From the NCBI GenBank assembly GCA_964016885.1, contig OZ024751.1:14446001-14510000 (forward strand): a stretch of 64,000 bases of DNA. Direction: 5' to 3'. Position numbers and translations under genes: made by a program. Under the pieces are notes generated by a model. The model made no database searches, was not told the origin of the DNA, and saw nothing but the letters and a program-made list of their open reading frames with translations. Positions 2,156-63,655 of this stretch are shown one piece after another; the stretch's first letter is position 1, and each line of letters starts with the position of its first letter. This stretch comes from Eledone cirrhosa (taxonomy: Eukaryota).

Positions 2156-2568
2156 TATAGAATTATAGAAAGACATCTCACCGATTTTAGTGGGAAATAA
2201 ATCTTTTTTATTCGTGTTGTTTTTTGTTCGTTTTTTGTTTTTTCGTGTGCTATCAAAATATTATTAGGACTCACCCCCCTCACCCCAGAAAAGTGAGGGA
2301 GAAGAGGGGGAGAGTTACTTGGAATCGTCACCCTCCCCTCCCCACAGTTTTCTTTATCATGTTCCCCTGGTTTTCTTCGTGTGCTCCCAACAAATCCTAC
2401 CTCCGAACTTCCGCAAAGGACTTTTTCCTCTGAAAACGGACGGGGGAGTAGGAAAGGTCTCAGATCCTGCTCCTCCCAACCCGGAGTTTTCTTACCCCCC
2501 CCCCCCCCCCCAAACCCTTTCTGTCACTCATCGCACTCTCCTTCATTCTCTCCAAGGAATAAATTTAC

Positions 2569-3103
2569 TGAAGAGGGATATTTCTCCGTGATATATAGAC
2601 ACGCTGTATATCACGAAGGCGACCCTACGACTTCATCAAGAGTTAAGAGTCCAATACATCTAAACAATAAATTGGGTGAAGAGGGATATTTCTCCGTGAT
2701 ATATAGACACGCTGTATATCACGAAGGCGACCCTACGACTTCATCAAGAGTTAAGAGTCCAATACATCTAAACAATAAATTGGGTGAAGAGGGATATTTC
2801 TCCGTGATATATAGACACGCTGTATATCACGAAGGCGACCCTACGACTTCATCAAGAGTTAAGAGTCCAATACATCTAAACAATAAATTGGGTGAAGAGG
2901 GATATTTCTCCGTGATATATAGACACGCTGTATATCACGAAGGCGACCCTACGACTTCATCAAGAGTTAAGAGTCCAATACATCTAAACAATAAATTGGG
3001 TGAAGAGGGATATTTCTCCGTGATATATAGACACGCTGTATATCACGAAGGCGACCCTACGACTTCATCAAGAGTTAAGGGTCCAATATATCTAAACAAT
3101 AAT
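2569..3103. repeat. Tandem array, 108-bp unit x ~5, near-identical, each unit containing a hairpin
   Basis: Units start at 2569, 2677, 2785, 2893, 3001; only the last unit has substitutions. Confidence 0.95.
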
Positions 3104-5118: not shown

Positions 5119-5323
5119 TTAACCCTACATATAATATTATATTTTCATGGTAAAGGCTTTATCTTACTTAATATTTCACATATTGAATCTATGAGATTTT
5201 GATATTATTCATTTTGAGAACAGTACCTTAACATCAGTATGAGTGGCCAGTTAGGCCGGTTGAAACAACAAGAGGTGAGAGAATTCTGGCTGGATATGGC
5301 CAGTTTAAATGCTATAGGGTTAA
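5119..5323 (-). mobile_element. piggyBac-type MITE (~200-230 bp, TTAA-flanked)
   Basis: TTAA-CCCTA...TAAATGCTATAGGG-TTAA; reverse complement of the copies at 31240, 31879, 36920 and 60938. Confidence 0.75.
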
Positions 5324-6303
5324 CTCCTTCATTACTATATTTCTAATGAAATAACTGTTATTAACTCCTTCCTTACTATATTTCTAATGAAATAACTGTT
5401 ATTAACTCTTTCCTTACTATATTTCTAATGAAATAACTGTTATTAACTCTTTCCTTAATATATTTCTAATGAAATAACTGTTATCAACTCCTTCCTTACT
5501 ATATTTCTAATGAAATAACTGTTATTAGCTCCTTCCTTACTATATTTCTAATGAAATAACTGTTATTAGCTCCTTCCTTACTATATTTCTAATGAAATAA
5601 CTGTTATTAACTCCTTCCTTACTATATTTCTAATGAAATAACTGTTATTAGCCCCTTCCTTACTATATTTCTAATAAAATAACTGTTATTAGCTCCTTCC
5701 TTACTATGTTTCTAATGAAATAACTGTTATTAGCTCCTTCCTTACTATATTTCTAATGAAATAACTGTTATTAACTCCTTCCTTACTATATTTCTAATGA
5801 AATAACTATTATTAGCTCTTTCCTTACTATATTTCTAATGAAATAACTGTTATTAACTCCTTCCTTACTATATTTCTAATGAAATAACTATTATTAGCCC
5901 CTTCCTTACTATATTTCTAATGAAATAACTGTTATTAGCTCCTTCCTTACTATATTTCTAATGAAATAATTGTTATTAACTCCTTCCTTACTATATTTCT
6001 AATGAAATAACTGTTATTAACTCCTTCATTACTATATTTCTAATGAAATAACTGTTATTAGCCCCTTCATTACTATATTTCTAATGAAATAACTGTTATT
6101 AGCTCCTTCCTTACTATATTTCTAATGAAATAACTGTTATTAACCCCTCCTTACTATATTTCTAATGAAATAACTGTTATTAACTCCTTCCTTACTATAT
6201 TTCTAATGAAATAACTGTTATTAACCCCTCCTTACTATATTTCTAATGAAATAACTGTTATTAACTCCTTCCTTACTATATTTCTAATGAAATAACTGTT
6301 ATT
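5320..6303. repeat. 41-bp minisatellite x ~24 (TTAACTCCTTCCTTACTATATTTCTAATGAAATAACTGTTA)
   Basis: Directly visible periodicity (5361, 5402, ...). Confidence 0.95.
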
Positions 6304-13963: not shown

Positions 13964-14131
13964 TTGGTACGAGTATGTTTAAGGCTAGACTGGTCAATAT
14001 TATTTCAACACGGAAGTGTTATGGATGACAATACAATATTCTCACAATTGAACTTTGTCTAATATTATCGTAAAATATACCATCTTCTTCTTTCCTTATT
14101 TTCAATGCCTGCTATGTTGTCCTTGGAATAT

Positions 14132-15166
14132 TTCCAGACATACGGCCATCCTTGGATTCTTCCAGACATACGGCCATCCTTGGATTCTTCCAGACATACG
14201 GCCATCCTTGGATTCTTCCAGACATACGGCCATCCTTGGATTCTTCCAGACATACGGCCATCCTTGGATTCTTCCAGACATACGGCCATCCTTGGATTCT
14301 TCCAGACATACGGCCATCCTTGGATTCTTCCAGACATATGGCCATCCTTGGATTCTTCCAAACATACGGCCATCCTTGGATTCTTCCAGACATATGGCCA
14401 TCCTTGGATTCTTCCAAACATACGGCCATCCTTGGATTCTTCCAGACATATGGCCATCCTTGGATTCTTCCAGACATACGGCCATCCTTGGATTCTTCCA
14501 AACATACGGCCATCCTTGGATTCTTCCAGACATATGGCCATCCTTGGATTCTTCCAAACATACGGCCATCCTTGGATTCTTCCAGACATATGGCCATCCT
14601 TGGATTCTTCCAAACATACGGCCATCCTTGGATTCTTCCAGACATACGGCCATCCTTGAATTCTTCCAGACATACGGCCATCTTTGGATTCTTCCAAACA
14701 TACGGCCATCCTTGGATTCTTCCAGACATATGGTCATCCTTGGATTCTTCCAAACATACGGCCATCCTTGGATTCTTCCAGACATATGGCCATCCTTGGA
14801 TTCTTCCAGACATACGGCCATCCTTGAATTCTTCCAGACATACGGCCATCTTTGGATTCTTCCAAACATACGGCCATCCTTGGATTCTTCCAGACATATG
14901 GCCATCCTTGGATTCTTCCAAACATACGGCCATCCTTGGATTCTTCCAAACATACGGCCATCTTTGGATTCTTCCAAACATATGGCCATCCTTGGATTCT
15001 TCCAGACATATGGCCATCCTTGGATTCTTCCAAACATACGGCCATCCTTGGATTCTTCCAGACATATGGCCATCCTTGGATTCTTCCAAACATACGGCCA
15101 TCCTTGGATTCTTCCAGACATACGGCCATCTTTGGATTCTTCCAGACATACGGCCATCCTTGGATA
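14132..15166. repeat. 28-bp minisatellite A x ~37 (TTCCAGACATACGGCCATCCTTGGATTC)
   Basis: Direct periodicity; explains the multiple spurious ORFs on both strands. Confidence 0.97.
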
Positions 15167-16075
15167 GTCCAGACACAGGTTCACCCTTGGACAGTCCCAA
15201 TTACAGGTCCACCCATATCTAGTTCCAGACACAGGTCCACCCATATCTAGTTCCAGACACAGGTCCACCCATATCTAGTTCCAGACACAGGTCCACCCAT
15301 ATCTAGTTCCAGACACAGGTCCACCCATATCTAGTTCCAGACACAGATCCACCCTTATCTAGTTCCAGACACAGGTTCACCCATATCTAGTTCCAGACAC
15401 AGATCCACCCTTATCTAGTTCCAGACACAGGTCCACCCATATCTAGTTCCAGACACAGGTCCACCCATATCTAGTTCCAGACACAGGTCCACCCATATCT
15501 AGTTCCAGACACAGGTTCACCCTTGGACAGTCCCAGTTACAGGTCCACCCATATCTAGTTCCAGACACAGGTCCACCCATATCTAGTTCCAGACACAGAT
15601 CCACCCATATCTAGTTCCAGACACAGATCCACCCATATCTAGTTCCAGACACAGGTCCACCCATATCTAGTTCCAGACACAGGTCCACTCTTATCTAGTT
15701 CCAGACACAGATCCACCCATATCTAGTTCCAGACACAGATCCACCCATATCTAGTTCCAGACACAGATCCACCCATATCTAGTTCCAGACACAGATCCAC
15801 CCATATCTAGTTCCAGACACAGGTCAACCCATATCTAGTTCCAGACACAGGTCCACCCATATCTAGTTCCAGACACAGGTCCACTCTTATCTAGTTCCAG
15901 ACACAGATCCACCCATATCTAGTTCCAGACACAGATCCACCCATATCTAGTTCCAGACACAGATCCACCCTTATCTAGTTCCAGACACAGATCCACCCAT
16001 ATCTAGTTCCAGACACAGATCCACCCTTTTCTAGTTCCAGACGCAGGTCCACCCTTGGACAGTCCCAGTTACAGG
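15167..16075. repeat. 28-bp minisatellite B x ~30 (TTCCAGACACAGGTCCACCCATATCTAG)
   Basis: Direct periodicity; 18/28 identical to unit A. Confidence 0.97.
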
Positions 16076-18159: not shown

Positions 18160-18783
18160 TAATGATATTACACTGGTATTATTACACTAGTGTGTTTGAT
18201 ATCACAATGATATTACACTGGTATTATTACACTAGTGTGTTGATATCACAATGATATTACACTGGTTATTACACTAGTGTGTTTGATATCACAATGATAG
18301 TACACTGGTATTATTACACTAGTGTGTTGATATCACAATGATAGTACACTGGTATTATTACACTAGTGTGTTTGATATCACAATGATATTACACTGGTAT
18401 TATTACACTAGTGTGTTGATATCACAATGATATTACACTGGTATTATTACACTAGTGTGTTGATATCACAATGATAGTACACTGGTATTATTACACTAGT
18501 GTGTTGATATCACAATGATATTACACTGGTATTATTACACTAGTGTGTTTGATATCACAATGATATTACACTGGTATTATTACACTAGTCTGTTGATATC
18601 ACAATGATATTACACTGGTATTATTACACTAGTGTGTTTGATATCACAATGATATTACACTGGTATTATTACACTAGTGTGTTGATATCACAATGATATT
18701 ACACTGGTATTATTACACTAGTGTGTTTGATATCACAATGATATTACACTGGTATTATTACACTAGTGTGTTTGATATCACAG
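18160..18783. repeat. 44-45-bp minisatellite x ~14 with internal palindromes; degenerate related units continue to ~19085
   Basis: AATGATATTACACTGGTATTATTACACTAGTGTGT(T)TGATATCAC repeats. Confidence 0.95.
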
Positions 18784-45503: not shown

Positions 45504-45830
45504 CATCATCATCATCATAATCATCATTTCACGTCCGCGTTTCCCTGCTTGCAAGGGTTGGACGGGTCCTATTCAGCACACCATCTCTCCACTTGTCACG
45601 GTCCTTCGTCATCTCCTCAGTGAGTTTCAGCGATCTGAGGTCTGCTCTCACCACCTCTGCCCATGTTTTTCGAGGTCTACCTCTACTGCGCCTTCCTTCT
45701 ACTGGGATTTCTTGGCACTTCTTCACCCAGCGGTCATCCTCCATGCACATCACATATCCATACCATCTCAGCCTTCTCTCCTGCACACCACAACTTGTCC
45801 CTCTTATACCCAGTTTCTTTCTCAACATCA
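45504..45830 (-). mobile_element. RTE LINE 3'-end fragment
   Basis: RRLRWYGYVM..VEGRRSRGRPRKTW and (TGA)n tail. Confidence 0.88.
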
Positions 45831-45875
45831 TGGTTAACTATACGGAATGACCAGTTCTACCCAGTGGTGAACCAC

Positions 45876-45936
<61 letters not shown>

Positions 45937-46211
45937 GTATGTCTGTTTGTCACTCTCTCTCTCATTACATTATTAGATTTAATAAAACCAGAACCAATCA
46001 GTATAAACAGTAGAAGAGAGTTCAGTGCTACCACAGACATAATTATATCTGTTCTCACACACACATACATACATACACACACATACACGCATAATAATCA
46101 GGAACTGATCTTCTATTATCTTCAAATACTCTGTCTGTTTGTCTGCCTGTCCCTGCCTGTTTCTCTGTCTGTCTGTCTATCTATCGATCTTTCTCTTTGC
46201 CTGTCTGTCTG

Positions 46212-46244
<33 letters not shown>

Positions 46245-46419
46245 GAGGATAGTAGACGTGTGTCATATCGCTCCGTGATTTGGATTTTTACCTGCTAATT
46301 TTGTGAGTGGATTTTTTTGAATTCTTTTGTATAATTAACTGTAACCCCTAGTCTGGGACTCTAGACGTCGGGTAAATATATTTTCACCCCTTTTGGGGTG
46401 AAAAATAAATATTTCAAAA

Positions 46420-48180
46420 ATGTTTATCGATATCGTTGATAACGATATCGTCGAAAACGATATCGCCATATTGAAAGCGAACGCCACGCCGACCAAAAAA
46501 ACAAGCGGGAAAGAGGGAACAACAGTTCAAACTGTTGAACAACCCCTCCTCTCCAATGAAAAAAAGAATTTCAATTCAAATGAAAAAATTAATTTTCAAG
46601 AAAAAAATAACACCACAAATAAGGAAACCAACAACATTACAACAACAAACAAAGACAAAATTTCTTTTGCCCAAACACTCAGGAGAGCCACGGAATACAA
46701 AGCTATTGACATCACGAACGCCAAGGAAAATTTGCTAGAGACTAGAAAATACGTATCTTTTGGGGAGGATGGTTCTTTTACGATCAACTCCCCAGAAGAA
46801 GTACGTCAACAGATTTACAAGAATACCGTAAGCTACAGAACCATAACCAACGAAACGAGAAAGCCAGCGCAATTGACCGAAAGTCAAATCGAGCTGGTTC
46901 TGAAAGAAATTAAAAATGACATACTCTTTATTCAAAGAGGAAAGCTGTATGCCAGCATTATGGTCCGAATGAAGGACGAAATGCTGGCTCAGAAATATTC
47001 GGTGGCACCTATAGTGTCACCACAATACACCTTCTTCCCCACATATAAAGGAAGAAGAACACAAAGGATAAGAATGTGGAGCCCTACGCCAGAAATTAAC
47101 ATCTGGTCCGTCCTAACAGGATTTACCGACCTAGATAAGGACATACTAATTTCAGCAGGGGAGTCCACCAGTGGACTGTTCGGGGGGAAAAGTCTGGAGG
47201 TTCTCTTACAGATGACACCTGAGAGAATCTCCGGAATACCCGACCGAGTGCTACTGGATGGGCGAACCTACATAAATATCACAGTGGAAGGCAGGAGACC
47301 CTCATGTTACCACTGCGCTGGCAGAGGTCACCTGAGGACGGCCTGCCCTCTACTAACAACTAAAAAACCACTGCTACAAACACCACAACAACAACAAAAA
47401 CAACCAGCACCACCATCACAAAAACAACAAAATACACTACCATCTCCACCAGAACAACAAAAACCAACAACACCACCACCACCACCACCACAACAACAAC
47501 AACAACATCAACAACAGCTCAAGAAAACAATCCAAAACACGGTCCCACCCAGCCCCACCCCACAGAACACAAATACAAAAACAGTTCATACACAACCCGG
47601 AGATATACCCCTCCCCTCCAATACGGAAGAGGAGCTCATATCGTCGGAAGACGAGGGGGCTCCCTTCCAAAAAGTGAAAAGAAAAAAACGTACACACACC
47701 ACACAAACAAAAATAACCCCACCTGACAACACAACACAGACAATAAAACGCAAACTCACTCAACAACAACAAGCAAAAACAAACACAACAACACAAAAAC
47801 TCTACACATACATAAACAAAAACAATGAAAACCTAACTTTAAAAGTAGAAACCAACCCTTCGATACAAACCGAAGGGCCGAATTTCGTAACGGCAATGGG
47901 GCTCCCTAACCTGAAAATGGTGAAAATCCCACTTGACATTTTTAAAACTTTAAAAGACATGTACCCTGAGGACGTGGGCCCACCCTGCACCAGGCCACTC
48001 AACCGCGTCCTCCTGAAAGGTTTTCCCTTCCCCTCCTCAAACACCCACACAACTCCAAAGATCCCAACCCCTCCACACACTAATACCCCCACACCACCAC
48101 AAACCACCACCCCACCCATCAACCCCTCCATCAGCCCCATGGAAACTGAGCGACCCGAACCCCGGGACGCAGAGAGGTAA
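46420..48180 (+). CDS. LINE ORF1, gag-like protein with CCHC zinc knuckle and P/Q/T-rich low-complexity C-terminal half (586 aa, intact)
   Basis: CYHCAGRGHLRTAC (C-x2-C-x4-H-x4-C) at 47305-47346; position upstream of the APE-RT ORF. Confidence 0.88.
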   Translation: MFIDIVDNDIVENDIAILKANATPTKKTSGKEGTTVQTVEQPLLSNEKKNFNSNEKINFQEKNNTTNKETNNITTTNKDKISFAQTLRRATEYKAIDITNAKENLLETRKYVSFGEDGSFTINSPEEVRQQIYKNTVSYRTITNETRKPAQLTESQIELVLKEIKNDILFIQRGKLYASIMVRMKDEMLAQKYSVAPIVSPQYTFFPTYKGRRTQRIRMWSPTPEINIWSVLTGFTDLDKDILISAGESTSGLFGGKSLEVLLQMTPERISGIPDRVLLDGRTYINITVEGRRPSCYHCAGRGHLRTACPLLTTKKPLLQTPQQQQKQPAPPSQKQQNTLPSPPEQQKPTTPPPPPPQQQQQHQQQLKKTIQNTVPPSPTPQNTNTKTVHTQPGDIPLPSNTEEELISSEDEGAPFQKVKRKKRTHTTQTKITPPDNTTQTIKRKLTQQQQAKTNTTTQKLYTYINKNNENLTLKVETNPSIQTEGPNFVTAMGLPNLKMVKIPLDIFKTLKDMYPEDVGPPCTRPLNRVLLKGFPFPSSNTHTTPKIPTPPHTNTPTPPQTTTPPINPSISPMETERPEPRDAER

Positions 48181-48203
48181 GTGCCTCTTTCTTTGCCACC
48201 AAC

Positions 48204-51200
48204 ATGGCTGTCTTAAGAGTAGGTTGTCTAAATGCGCGTGGCCTGGGCTCACCTTGGAAGCAAGCTAAACTTCTAAGTGACCTCAGGTCACAATGTATAA
48301 ATGTGATGGTTATTTGCGAGGCCCGGATCAGCAGCATGCGACAGCTAGCCCCCACCTTTGATGACTTTGAGATGCACGCATCTCTCTGTCAGCCCGGAGG
48401 TGGGGGTGGGGTTGTCGTTCTGCTGCAAAAACATCTGGGTCTCGCTACACAGACGGTACACTTGGACCCGGAGGGTCGACTCGTGGTTCTGGACCTTGGC
48501 AATGGCGAAGGCGAAGCTTTTAGGCTTGTCGCCGTATACGCCCCTTTTGGGGCAATGCGGTCGGACTTCTTCCATCGTCTGGAGACTTTTCTAGGGACGT
48601 CCCGCTCCTTGCTTTTAGTGGGGGACTGGAATGGTATCCTAGATGCACGTTGGGACTATGTAGGGGCATGTCCCGATAGAGGGGGGTGTAACAGCCTTAA
48701 GGGGTTAATCGGCCGATTCGACCTGGCCGATAGATACCGACTAGATTTTCCGACTGTACCAACCTGGACCTGGTCAAATAACAGCGGTCAATCTAGATCG
48801 TACCTAGATAGGTTCTTAGTTAGAATTAAGGATAGGGACTTTTTAAGTTGTCCAGAAATGCTCATGGTGGGCTATTCAGACCACAAGTTAGTGACCTGCG
48901 TAGTCCACCTTGATAGAACGCATAGGCAGGGGCCCGGTTACTGGAAGCTCAACTTGTCCTTACCGGCAAGTAGAGCTTACAGGGACCGGATTAGAACCTT
49001 AGTTAAGGAGCAGTTGACGGGCGCCATCGTCAACAACAGGTGGTGGGGCTCTCTAAAAAGAGAGATTAGAGTAGTTTCAATAGGAGTTAGTAAGGAGTTA
49101 GCCTCAGATAGAAATAGGAAGGAAAGGGAGTTGGTAGTTAATGTTGAAGAGGCAATGAGAAGCGGCAATGAGAAGCGGCAACGTGGCCAGAGTGCAAGCG
49201 TCGAGAACAGTCTTGAACCAGTTCTTCGACGCGAAACACGAAGGCTGCGTTGTCCGAAGCAAAATACGTGCTCTGGGAAACGAGGGGACCAAAGCTGTTA
49301 GCTGGGCCCGCGTGACAGAAGCGAAAAGTGGGATTAAATCCACTATCCGGTCTTTGCGAGACCAGGATGGACGGCTGATCCTTGAACCTAAGCAAATGTG
49401 CGAGGCCTTTCAAAGGCACTTTGCCCAATTGTTCGGGAGGGGCGGGGAGCCGGTTGGAGATGTGGATTTCGGGCCATACCTCGACGGCCTGCCGCGTCTT
49501 TCGGACAGGGAGGCGAGGTCCTGCGACGGGCCGATTTCAGCTGCTGAAATAGGGGACGTGCTGAGCCTATGCGGCAAACGCAAATCTCCAGGACTCGATG
49601 GTCTGCCCTACGAACTATATATTAATATGCCGGACTTGTTCCCCGATCTCCTCGAGGCGGTCTACTGCAACTGGCAACAGAACAGGAGAATTCCCTGTTC
49701 TGTGACCAAGGGCGTAGTCTCGCTAGTGAGGAAGGACGAGAACAAGGGGGATGACATTAGTAATTTTAGGCCCATAACTCTGCTAAATGCAGAGTTAAAG
49801 ATTTTGGCGAAGGTGTTAGCGAAGAGGTTGGCGCTTGTCGTGGGGGGCCTGGTGGGAGATGCGCAGACATGCGCTATCCCGTCCAGGTCCATCCACGACA
49901 ACCTCCACCTCATGCGATACATCATAGAGAGGGTTGGGAACGAACCCGGCTTTGGTGGGGCCCTGATAAATTTAGATCAGTCTAAAGCGTTCGATAGGGG
50001 TGGACCATGGTTACCTGGATGCGGTGCTAGCGGCGGCTGGGTTCGGACCCGTTTTCAGGGGCTGGATCACTGCCATGCATAGCAACCGCATCTGCTCTAG
50101 AGTCAAGGTGAACGGCTACCTTTCGGAGCCGTTCGAAATCACCCGCTCCATCCGACAGGGGTGCCCTCTCTCCTCCCTTCTGTATGTGTTGACTCTCGAG
50201 CCATTACTGCGGAAGTTGGAGTTGTTGCAGGGCATCCCTTTGGAACCGGGATTGCGCAAAGCGGTGTCGGCCTACGCCGATGACGTAACAGTAATGGTGT
50301 CGACCGCCTCGGAAATCGAGGCAATCGGCACCTTACTAGAGGAGTACAAAAGGTTGACAGGGGCTAAGCTGAACCGGGACAAGTCAGTCGCTTTGCAACT
50401 CGGCGAGTGGAGGGGCAAAGCGATGTCGTGCGACGGTATCGTCGGACGGTGGACGGAGGGCCCGGTGAAGTTGCTTGGGGTCTGGTTCGGACCGGACCTC
50501 CAGGTGGAGAAAAACTGGGGTGAGGTGACGAATAGGGTGTTTGCACTGACCCAGAAGTGGGCCGAGTGCAAACTATCCCTAAAAGGTCGGGCGGAGGTGG
50601 CAAACGCTTACATAGCGTCCGTCATCTATTACCGCTTGACTGTCGTGCCTTGCCCGGGTGAGATCCTCGCCAAAATTGAGCGCGCCCTCTTTTATTTCCT
50701 TTGGAAGAAGAGGTCTCCTCTGGTGAGGAGATCCATCTGCTGTCAACACCCTTTGAAAGGAGGGCTGGGGATGCCGTGGCTAAAAATGCGTAAACACGCA
50801 TTGAGGCTAAGGCACCTCCACGTATTCCTCACCGGTCAACCGGTGTGGGCCCCGTTTGTGAGGCGAGCCTTCCCGAGGCTCGTCTCGCTCACCGAGCTGC
50901 AGTCCTGGGTGAAGCAAAGACCGAGAAAACTGGGCGACTGGCACACCGAGTGTGCCCAGGCGCTCACGGCTCTCTGGCAGGCGGACCCGGCTATCGACGG
51001 CGACTCCACCTCGTCATTCTATAGAGGGCTGGTGGTTAGCGGGTGCGACGACGCCCTCGGAGAAACCCTAGGCATGGAGGAGGACGAACTGGCCAGTCTA
51101 TTCGGTAGGACTTTCGGCCCGGGACCTATGGACAACTTCCAGAAGTCCTTAGCCTGGCAGTGCTACCGAGGGGCTCTGCCCGTTCGGGATAAGCTCTACA

Positions 51201-51655
51201 GACACGGGCGCCCGGGTAGGGACCCCTCGAAAAAGATCTGTCCCAGATGCGTGCGCGACGAGGAAACCGTCGCGCACGCATTGGTGCACTGCCCGGGCGT
51301 TGCCGATCTGTGGGGCTATGTTGAACAACTGCTGTCACGGGTGGGACCAATTAGGTTGACCACCGAGTCCATTGTAACGATCAAGCCGCCTCCCCCCTTC
51401 AAAAATGAAGGAGAGGCGGTCTTCCTCTGTGTAATAGCCATGGTAAAAGAGGCTATATGGTGGACGCGTCTGAAAGGGCTGAGGTCGGACACCTTTCTCT
51501 CCGGCCAACAACTGGTCCTTTTTTTCCGATACCATTTCGGAAGAAGGATCAGGATGGAGAGAGAGGTGCTCCACTCCAGCAAGTTTTATGAAAGGTGGGT
51601 GAAAGTTGCGAGAATGGCCCGTGTGAATGGGCCTTCTCTCTACCTCAGCCTGTAG
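48204..51655 (+). pseudogene. LINE ORF2 (AP endonuclease + reverse transcriptase + C-terminal zinc finger) interrupted by two frameshifts
   Basis: APE: LNARGL, VYAP, VGDWN, YLDRF, SDH; RT: KSPGLDG, FRPITLLN, DQSKAFDR, RQGCPLS, AYADD; CPRC..HALVHC; 13-bp duplication at 49151-49176 and an extra G in the run at 49997-50000. Confidence 0.92.
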
Positions 51656-52594
51656 GTGGAACAGAAAGAAGGGAGCACTCTCTCTCTGTGCTGCCGTGGA
51701 GAAGGGTCGCACACTTTTTTTCGGGGGTGTGTGTGACCCCAAAACGATCCCTCCCTATTGAGGACCTTCTTGTTATTATTTTGTTTGTTATATTTTTCTT
51801 ACTCGATTTTTATGTAAACTCCCCCCACCCATGTACATGTCCCTTTCTTTTGTGCCCTAGTGGCAAATAAACAGAAATTAGTCTGTCTGTCTGTCTATCA
51901 GTCAGTAAGTCTGTCTGTCTGTCTATCAGTCAGTCAGTCTGTCTGTCTGTCTGTCTATCAGTCAGTCAGTCTGTCTGTCTGTCTGTCTATCAGTCAGTAA
52001 GTCTGTCAGTTTGGGATTATTGCCAGAACAGAATACATTGAATTGAAACATGTGATAATAGTGTATGTGTATGTGTATGTATGTATGTGCATATGTATGT
52101 GCATGTATGTCTATATATGTATGTGTACGTATATGTACTTATATGTATGTCTATATATGTATGTGTGTATGTATGCATATGTACATAAGCATGTGTATAT
52201 GTATGTATATGTACGTATGTGTATATATGTATGTGGGTTAGGGTGGGGGTGAATGGCATCCTTTAGAGAGATTACACTAATACTACACAATTCATTGACT
52301 CTCACACCCCACCCCCCGTCTCTCTCTTTCACTCAAGCCCCATCACCTCCTCTCTCTAACAACCCTCCTCTCTCTCTCTCACTCCTATACAAGGAGGGAG
52401 AAAACAAGATCCTGTAGATGTTATCATTAGCAATATTAAACTATATTCCCTGTGTTCTAAGCAATAAATATATTGTAGAGTGACTGGCAGATTTCATTAT
52501 CTTTGGATTTATTTCCTTCTTAAAAACAAAAACAAAATACTCTACAATATTGAACAGATTATTATCTTTAGAAGAAAGAAACCTATCAAAGCAG

Positions 52595-63298: not shown

Positions 63299-63655
63299 TA
63301 AAAATAATAGTAATAGTAGTAATAGTAGTAATAGTAATAGTAGTAGTCGTAGTAGTAAAAATAAAAGTAATAGTAATGATGATGATAATGCTACTCCATT
63401 GGTGTTGTTTGTTTGGAATCTATTACTAATACATATTTCCAATTAACTAAAACATTTGATATTCATCAGAAAAAAAATGTACAAACTATGTAGAATTAAA
63501 TAATAAATGACGTCTGTTCTATTCTATTCATTTTTGTTGAAGTTCTTCTTTTATACTAGTTGTTGTCTGTCTGTCTGTCTGTCAGTCTATCTGTCTATCA
63601 GTCACAAGTTGAGATACTTTAATATTTTGGTAATGCTTTGTATATATTAGTGGAG

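What the first reader, a model, noticed from the sequence alone, without database searches (positions are those of the whole stretch)
46130..52010. Candidate (GTCT)n-specific Tx1-type retrotransposon with no poly(A) tail
Seen: a full-length two-ORF APE-type LINE begins right after (GTCT)n at ~46245 and ends AATAAACAGAAATTA directly followed by (GTCT/GTCA/CTAT)n in the same orientation. The window has dozens of (TA)n/(CA)n tracts but (GTCT)n only here and at ~63565, so chance insertion seems unlikely. Established: Tx1-clade elements include sequence-specific families (Kibi at (TC)n, Koshi at (TTC)n, Keno at U2 snRNA, Dewa at tRNA spacers, Mutsu at 5S rDNA). Inference: a tetranucleotide-targeting family; I do not know of a described (GTCT)n target, so it may be new and of interest as a site-specific endonuclease.
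Basis: partly seen in the sequence, partly recalled or inferred. Interest (0 to 1): 0.78.

Follow-up and report, generated by a model that had tools for sequence, protein, structure and literature searches.

The report
LINE retrotransposon that targets GTCT repeats
This is a damaged copy of a young jumping-gene family that sits almost only inside GTCT repeats, likely because its own enzyme cuts there; a close sister family sits in ATCT repeats instead, so the pair would be a natural test of how such elements choose their targets.

Summary
Confirmed. Window 46245-51879 is a full-length two-ORF L1-group LINE (APE, RT, no poly(A)); this copy has two frameshifts. Genome-wide there are 203 exact 3' ends and 98 exact 5' ends. 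92 of 98 5' ends follow T[G/C]TCT; 95 of 98 3' ends on contigs C1-C4 are followed by a GTCT-type motif. Locus-specific repeat variants lie on both sides, so the repeats pre-existed. 43 of 100 fetched full-length copies keep both ORFs. Six of 15 5'-incomplete copies have 12-19 bp target duplications; six have unrelated 5' flanks. Full-length copies mostly lack the duplication and start with a (GTCT)n leader; a leader variant is shared by near-identical copies on different chromosomes, so the leader is likely carried on the RNA, as in melanogaster-type R1 and some R2. A sister family (ORF2 84% identical, 1379 3' ends) sits in (ATCT)n and differs in the endonuclease loops. Microsatellite-targeting Tx1 elements, tetranucleotide ones included, are known; I found no GTCT or ATCT target in print, but could not search Repbase/Dfam or test Tx1 membership by phylogeny. 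Verdict: new variant of a known kind, moderate interest.

The parts
46130..46244 (+). Upstream GTCT-type compound microsatellite (target); its last pure (GTCT)8 run, 46213-46244, is target plus likely RNA-borne leader
   Evidence: leader inference
46245..46419 (+). 5' UTR, starts GAGGATAGTAGACG; folds better than shuffles (46225-46425, z -4.3); no Rfam family near its gathering score
46420..48180 (+). ORF1, 586 aa, intact; one CX2CX4HX4C zinc knuckle at about 47302-47349 (Pfam zf-CCHC 13.7 bits, below the 20.8 cut-off)
48204..51655 (+). ORF2 (1145 aa in intact copies): APE endonuclease, reverse transcriptase, C-terminal zinc-binding motif; broken here by two frameshifts
48204..48923 (+). APE-type endonuclease domain; the loop aligned to L1 betaB6-betaB5 reads WTWSNNSGQSRSY
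49151..49163 (+). 13-bp tandem duplication, frameshift, found in this copy only of 100 full-length copies
49750..50485 (+). Reverse transcriptase core (RVT_1), with a one-base insertion at 49997
51143..51313 (+). C-terminal zinc-binding motif (zf-RVT, 27.7 bits, cut-off 27.5)
51656..51879 (+). 3' UTR with AATAAA at 51866-51871, ending AGAAATT; no poly(A)
51880..52010 (+). Downstream half of the target microsatellite (GTCT/ATCA/GTCA units); first 16 bases after the A could be the target duplication

Best explanation
This is a frameshifted full-length copy of a young L1-group (likely Tx1-clade) LINE family that lies almost only inside GTCT-type microsatellites, likely because its APE endonuclease nicks at C^TGTCTG and primes reverse transcription there. 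Shown: domain order, copy numbers, flanks, target duplications of 12-19 bp in truncated copies, tandem arrays, intact young copies. Inferred steps: (1) the RNA starts a little upstream, inside the donor's repeat, so it carries a (GUCU)n leader of at least 8 and up to about 30 nt; (2) ORF2 nicks the bottom strand at C^TGTCT (less often one base earlier, ^CTGTCT), tolerating A at positions 1, 2 or 4; reverse transcription starts at the element's last bases, perhaps steadied by a few read-through GUCU bases past AAUAAA, so no poly(A) is copied; (3) a second nick 12-19 bp downstream gives an ordinary duplication when the cDNA is truncated; (4) when the cDNA is complete, its (AGAC)n end anneals to the target top strand and replaces the duplication by the leader, or anneals to the leader of a neighbouring copy, duplicating the whole spacer (57 and 111 bp cases); (5) each insertion leaves fresh target at both ends, so head-to-tail arrays form by repeated insertion and by local duplication.
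For: Specificity: 92 of 98 exact 5' ends preceded by T[G/C]TCT; all 98 exact 3' ends on C1-C4 (69 regions): 95 followed by Y-W-R-T-M-T, 79 by N-TGTCT, 0 by poly(A). Pre-existing target: the same locus-specific unit lies on both sides in many loci, e.g. L072, L074, L104, L112. Duplications: 6 of 15 5'-incomplete copies, 12-19 bp with 0-1 mismatch, one at a non-repeat site (C4:62.83 Mb) and one running into the head of the next copy. Leader: 40 of 57 informative full-length copies show no variant-bearing duplication and 39 of these 40 end in GTCT; perfect run longer 5' than 3' (median 16 vs 7, 54 vs 17 of 73, p 8e-7); 6 of 8 cross-locus pairs differing at 2 or fewer of 5577 sites share a flank variant against 66 of 2220 others, with unshared 3' flanks; locus-level permutation 4 of 6, p 1e-4; two copies on C22 and C1 share a 33-nt leader with two variants and their first 3.1 kb but not their 3' halves. 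Youth: 43 of 100 full-length copies with both ORFs intact, pairs on different chromosomes 0-2 differences apart. Family-intrinsic preference: third flank base G in 88 of 98 against 0 of 30 in the sister family, p 5e-21, with fixed differences in endonuclease loops. Precedent: melanogaster-type R1A (PMC2718515) and R2 with upstream cleavage (PMC3774820).
Against: No biochemical or RNA evidence. 6 of 15 5'-incomplete copies have unrelated 5' flanks and no duplication, and 3 more have a target-like flank without duplication; one 57-bp copy sits at AGTATT with no repeat. 17 of 57 informative full-length copies do show a variant-bearing match within 20 nt of the junction (3 within 3 nt), so replacement is not universal. 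The shared-leader signal rests on two independent clusters plus one pair, and 2 of the 6 close locus pairs do not share the variant; the copy tree is poorly resolved and shows mosaics, so gene conversion could carry flanks too. The 100 full-length copies are enriched for best hits, which inflates the intact share. Loop grafts on L1 endonuclease were not simply modular (PMC1950540), so the loop differences are only candidates.
Confidence: 0.8

Rival explanations
1. Specificity comes mainly from RNA-DNA pairing: read-through GUCU at the RNA 3' end anneals at nicks made by a loosely specific endonuclease, and only pairing sites prime.
For: AATAAA lies only 8 nt before the end, so cleavage 10-30 nt downstream (textbook value, recalled) would leave target bases on the RNA; the first six flank bases are the most conserved and conservation drops after; downstream target on the RNA is proposed for R1 (PMC2718515); the endonucleases of the GTCT and ATCT families are 83% identical.
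Against: Near-identical copies share only about 5 nt of 3' flank and no 3' transduction was seen; flank variants AGTCT, TATCT and TGTAT are tolerated at the very first bases; the endonuclease differences are nearly fixed and lie in DNA-facing loops; Tx1L endonuclease alone is sequence-specific in vitro (PMC1950540).
Confidence: 0.2
2. Targeting is real, but the uniform 5' GTCT run arises after insertion, by slippage, gene conversion or unequal exchange between copies, and is not carried on the RNA.
For: Mosaic copies and arrays of near-identical neighbours exist; three long-spacer pairs share their first 500-780 bases, as recombinants would; microsatellites mutate fast (established knowledge).
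Against: The asymmetry is 5' only and appears in the youngest copies; truncated copies keep ordinary duplications; the sister family keeps 18-21 bp duplications at full-length 5' ends in 5 loci read by eye; in the 111-bp and 57-bp duplications the two neighbours differ from base 15 and base 51 on.
Confidence: 0.2
3. The element inserts at random and the GTCT repeats are its own head and tail that later expanded.
For: Part of the 5' run does travel with the element; 6 of 15 5'-incomplete copies have unrelated 5' flanks.
Against: Locus-specific repeat units stand on both sides; 3' flanks differ between near-identical copies; 9 of 15 5'-incomplete copies, which lack the head, still have a target-type 5' flank or a duplication of the target.
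Confidence: 0.03

Closest known systems
Microsatellite-specific Tx1 families: Kibi (TC)n, Koshi (TTC)n, crocodilian Tx1-1_Crp group (TTCC)n/(TTTC)n (PMC4494074, passages and section 15; PMC3812793, passages)
   Same: APE-type two-ORF LINE inserted in a fixed orientation into a short-unit microsatellite; tetranucleotide targets included
   Different: Target unit GTCT (sister: ATCT), not named in the passages read; host is likely an octopod (closest named relative Argonauta hians, 68% in RT), not fish or crocodilian; kinship to these lineages not tested
Melanogaster-type R1A of Drosophila (PMC2718515, section 11 part 1 and section 15)
   Same: Works alike: APE-type; full-length copies carry upstream target sequence and have uniform 5' junctions, truncated copies have ordinary duplications near 14 bp, tandem arrays form at the junction sequence
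   Different: R1 clade, 28S rDNA target, precise 9-bp deletion; here L1 group, microsatellite target, variable leader length
R2 elements whose ribozyme cleaves up to 36 nt upstream in 28S rRNA (PMC3774820, abstract)
   Same: Target sequence left on the RNA 5' end is proposed to anneal and prime the second strand
   Different: R2 has one ORF and a restriction-like endonuclease; no ribozyme family was matched here
Waldo (ACAY)n and Mino (AC)n (PMC3812793, passages)
   Same: Target unit differs from ACAG (the complement of GTCT) by one base; APE-type
   Different: Described in insects; R1 clade by the title of the cited source; this ORF2 aligns with L1 over 850 residues
Human L1 ORF2p (PDB 8sxt and others)
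   Same: Best solved relative, E 3e-50 over residues 7-858, catalytic APE and RT motifs aligned
   Different: L1 has a poly(A) tail, a TTTT/AA preference and a different ORF1 type

Membership tests
Tx1 clade (L1 group) | RT phylogeny inside the Tx1 clade | not testable with these tools
   No named Tx1 reference among 87 and 120 listed homologs or 10 clusters looked up; ESM Atlas names uninformative
Tx1 clade (L1 group) | ORF2 with N-terminal APE endonuclease and RT closer to L1 than to R2 | tested here: met
   Exo_endo_phos and RVT_1 above cut-off; L1 E 3e-50 against R2 E 9e-18; only L1 and R2 full-length references were returned
Tx1 clade (L1 group) | Type I ORF1 with CCHC knuckle (and RRM), described as consistent with Tx1 in non-mammalian animals (PMC5203782, passages) | tested here: inconclusive
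   CX2CX4HX4C motif is in the sequence but below Pfam cut-off; Atlas neighbours are zf-CCHC and ZCCHC3-like RNA-binding clusters at 0.90-0.92; no RRM hit in Pfam
Tx1 clade (L1 group) | C-terminal zinc-binding motif in ORF2 | tested here: met
   zf-RVT 27.7 bits in the window piece, 26.3 in an intact copy, cut-off 27.5
Target-specific Tx1 family (criterion of PMC4494074: one sequence type in over 20% of flanks) | Target type in more than 20% of flanks | tested here: met
   92 of 98 5' ends and 95 of 98 3' ends
Non-LTR insertion by TPRT | Precise 3' ends, 5' truncations, target-site duplications | tested here: met
   203 3' ends against 98 5' ends (exact-match counts, older heads missed); 12-19 bp duplications in 6 of 15 incomplete copies; one 5' inversion
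Kibi / Koshi / crocodilian TTCC-TTTC lineage | Target (TC)n, (TTC)n, (TTCC)n or (TTTC)n | tested here: not met
   First six flank bases are TGTCT-type in 125 fetched 3' ends
Kibi / Koshi / crocodilian TTCC-TTTC lineage | RT clusters with Kibi and Koshi | not testable with these tools
   No reference sequences available
Melanogaster-type R1A / upstream-cleaving R2 (works like, not member) | Upstream target sequence present on the element RNA | tested here: inconclusive
   Indirect support from shared leader variants; no RNA data
Melanogaster-type R1A / upstream-cleaving R2 (works like, not member) | 28S rDNA target; R1-clade RT or restriction-like endonuclease | tested here: not met
   Microsatellite target; APE domain and L1-like ORF2

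The most novel reading that the evidence does not exclude
Two young sister LINEs in one genome, 84% identical in ORF2, have switched target by a single base (ATCT versus GTCT) through a handful of endonuclease loop changes, and the GTCT family has also gained RNA-leader-guided 5' joining that can copy over 100 bp of target: an L1-group element whose target can be retuned by a few residues and whose 5' junction can be set by the RNA.
Probability: 0.35. Interest if true: 0.65.

Novelty: new variant of a known kind. Interest (0 to 1): 0.45.

Why it matters
A review states that the mechanisms of microsatellite targeting by APE-type elements are not well understood (PMC3812793), and earlier loop grafts used very distant enzymes (PMC1950540). 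Here two young families with intact copies differ by one target base and by 42 of 250 endonuclease-region residues, a few of them in DNA-facing loops, which makes the question directly testable. The element also shows, in the L1 group, the target-leader joining known from R1 and R2, and would add to GTCT/ATCT repeat growth and tandem arrays in this genome. It is still one more member of a well-known strategy, and the family may already be in Repbase or Dfam.

Tried and rejected
Empty-allele test: laying four runs on the 3' junction of L093 gave no empty site and showed that this flank is itself a high-copy repeat, so L093 was dropped as a clean unique-flank case. Laying contigs of four runs on the window element skipped the repeats and said nothing on targets; it showed many 85-95% relatives of ORF2 in organisms A, B and C. 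No RNA holder listed. Rfam: seven chance-level matches, none near a gathering score, no ribozyme; divergent HDV-like folds are not excluded. No named Tx1 reference was found for a tree. Literature searches for a GTCT or ATCT-targeting LINE found none; the library lacks most subscription papers, Kojima and Fujiwara 2004 was not read, and the supplement of PMC4494074 could not be read and may list further targets. Earlier scan findings: none. The 2595 first-look candidates are not a copy number; they include sister families. A general long duplication (over 100 bp) was rejected: long duplications were seen only next to an existing copy. Left out of the count of 15 5'-incomplete copies: one copy cut by an assembly gap, copies with internal deletions or nested insertions whose head is present, one fragmentary locus, and one 72-bp fragment at 94% without the exact 3' motif. 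No structure or complex prediction was run.
Full report
Observation. The element runs from 46245 to 51879 (5635 bp). ORF1 (46420-48180, 586 aa) has one CCHC knuckle; ORF2 (48204-51655) has an APE endonuclease, reverse transcriptase and C-terminal zinc motif. This copy's ORF2 is broken by a private 13-bp duplication and one extra base. Runs of four or more GTCT units occur only around the element and at 63564.

Host and family size. The window lies in a 3.0-Gb genome. The closest named relative of the RT is from the octopod Argonauta hians (68%), so the host is likely an octopod; I did not identify it further. There are 203 exact matches to the last 32 bases and 98 to the first 26 (older heads differ and are missed). 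Of 100 full-length copies fetched, 43 have both ORFs intact and 48 an intact 1145-aa ORF2; this set is enriched for best hits. Copies on different chromosomes differ at as few as 0-2 of 5577 aligned sites, so the family moved very recently.

Target specificity. 92 of the 98 exact 5' ends follow T[G/C]TCT (89 TGTCT, 3 TCTCT). All 98 exact 3' ends on contigs C1-C4, in 69 regions, were read: 95 are followed by Y-W-R-T-M-T, 79 by N-TGTCT, none by poly(A). Background is 0.0017 per position in the window, and (GTCT)5 has 16,460 overlapping matches in the genome. The repeats pre-existed: locus-specific units stand on both sides of the copy in many loci. The 3' junction is best read as element AGAAATT joined at C^TGTCTG, with A tolerated at positions 1, 2 and 4, and a minority joined one base earlier (AGAAAT plus the target base) (the reading as a nick is inference).

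Truncated copies. Of 15 5'-incomplete copies with a readable flank, 6 have 12-19 bp duplications with at most one mismatch, 3 have a target-like 5' flank without duplication, and 6 have unrelated 5' flanks. The last six are against a clean picture; two are fragments of 43 and 57 bp, and the others may be later deletions or interruptions, which I could not show. One duplication lies at a non-repeat site that only holds CTATCTG, and one runs into the head of the neighbouring copy.

Full-length 5' junctions. These behave differently. Among 57 full-length copies whose 3' flank has a variant in its first 12 bases, 40 show no variant-bearing duplication and 39 of those end in GTCT; 17 show a match within 20 nt of the junction, 3 within 3 nt. 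The perfect run is longer on the 5' side (median 16 against 7). A variant 8 nt upstream of the start is shared by near-identical copies on C2, C14 and C23, and by an identical pair on C19 and C27, while their 3' flanks differ; at locus level 4 of 6 close pairs share it, permutation p 1e-4, from two independent clusters. Copies on C22 and C1 share a 33-nt leader with two variants and their first 3.1 kb only. The simplest reading is an RNA that begins inside the donor's repeat, whose cDNA end anneals to the new target. The same pattern is described for melanogaster-type R1A (PMC2718515, section 11 part 1 and section 15) and for R2 elements that self-cleave upstream (PMC3774820, abstract). No ribozyme family matched; the 5' UTR folds better than shuffles (z -4.3). 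Gene conversion remains a rival.

Arrays. 13 fetched regions hold two or more full-length copies, 40 copies in all. Some neighbours are closer to copies elsewhere than to each other (independent insertion); others are near-identical (local duplication or assembly). In two pairs the whole spacer, 111 and 57 bp with one mismatch each, is duplicated upstream of the first copy and ends exactly at the neighbour's head, although the two copies differ from base 15 and base 51 on. This fits joining by annealing to the neighbour's leader. Three other long-spacer pairs share their first 500-780 bases and may be recombinants.

Sister family. A relative with 1379 exact 3' ends, about 81% identical in the last 1.5 kb, is followed by CTATCT or ATATCT in 27 of the first 30 loci. 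The third flank base is G in 88 of 98 copies of the GTCT family and 0 of 30 of the sister (p 5e-21). Its ORF2 is 84% identical. Its full-length copies have their own head and keep 18-21 bp duplications in five loci read by eye out of ten fetched. The first 250 residues are 83% identical; differences such as P17T, A40T, A112S/M118E/S120P, G144D and S191R/N193H are nearly fixed in 72 and 8 readable copies. Residues 191 and 193 align with the L1 betaB6-betaB5 hairpin, which is placed in the minor groove and affects nicking, though grafts were not simply modular (PMC1950540, passages). The direction of the switch is unknown.

Comparison with what is known. ORF2 is L1-like (E 3e-50 against 9e-18 for R2) and ORF1 is of the CCHC type that is described as consistent with Tx1 (PMC5203782, passages). 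Most target-specific APE elements belong to the Tx1 or R1 clade (PMC4640811, passages). Tx1 membership is therefore likely but untested, as no named reference was available. Listed microsatellite targets are ACAY, AC, TC, TTC and TAA (PMC3812793, passages), TTCC and TTTC (PMC4494074, section 15) and TG (PMC4640811). An annotation of Octopus vulgaris counts 13 recently active L1-Tx1 families and does not use the word target (PMC13282606, passages). Searches found no GTCT or ATCT target; Repbase, Dfam and the supplement of PMC4494074 were not seen.

Verdict. A real, young, sequence-specific LINE family with a target unit I could not find in print, a likely RNA-borne 5' leader and a sister family one base away in target. 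The strategy and the mechanism both have precedents, so it is a new variant of a known kind. Interest 0.45.

Noticed in passing
L209-L248; G000:C1 and genome-wide: Sister LINE family with 1379 exact 3' ends that sits in (ATCT)n, with intact 1145-aa ORF2 copies (L241, L242, L246) and its own tandem arrays.
   Followed up: partly
L080, L094, L095, L111, L068, L156 (3' ends listed): At least three further related 3' ends (ending AAAGAAAC, AAAAGAAAC, AAAGAAAG) are followed by ATATCT; these families share repeat tracts with the GTCT family, forming mixed clusters.
   Followed up: no
G000:C3:358728700-358781800 (L087-L089, L188-L190): Nine full-length copies in 53 kb, with spacers of 9-49 bp and one of 1149 bp; copies 5-8 alternate as a duplicated pair.
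   Followed up: partly
L116/L182 (G000:C3:203.91-203.92 Mb) and L177/L113 (C2:276.72 Mb): Duplications of 111 and 57 bp that end exactly at the head of the neighbouring older copy.
   Followed up: partly
Older copies, e.g. L151, L154, L171, L191, L195: Older subfamilies (92-96% identical) have different first bases (TT-GATAG, CAG-GATAG) but the same GTCT flanks, so the target has been stable across subfamilies.
   Followed up: partly
L071 (G000:C19:14.45 Mb): 5'-inverted copy: element bases 2440-626 reversed, joined to 5263-5635.
   Followed up: no
window 45504-45837, minus strand: Open frame reading RRLRWYGYV...RGRPRKTW followed by an (ATC)n tract; resembles the 3' end of an RTE-type LINE (resemblance recalled, not tested).
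   Followed up: no
window 63564-63600: Unoccupied GTCT/GTCA/ATCT tract of the target type.
   Followed up: no
window 2558-3102, 5320-6303, 14120-16054, 18161-18782: High-identity minisatellites with periods 108, 41, 28 and 44.
   Followed up: no
L093:6416-6700: The flank is a very high-copy repeat bordered by (TA)n in other places; not classified.
   Followed up: no
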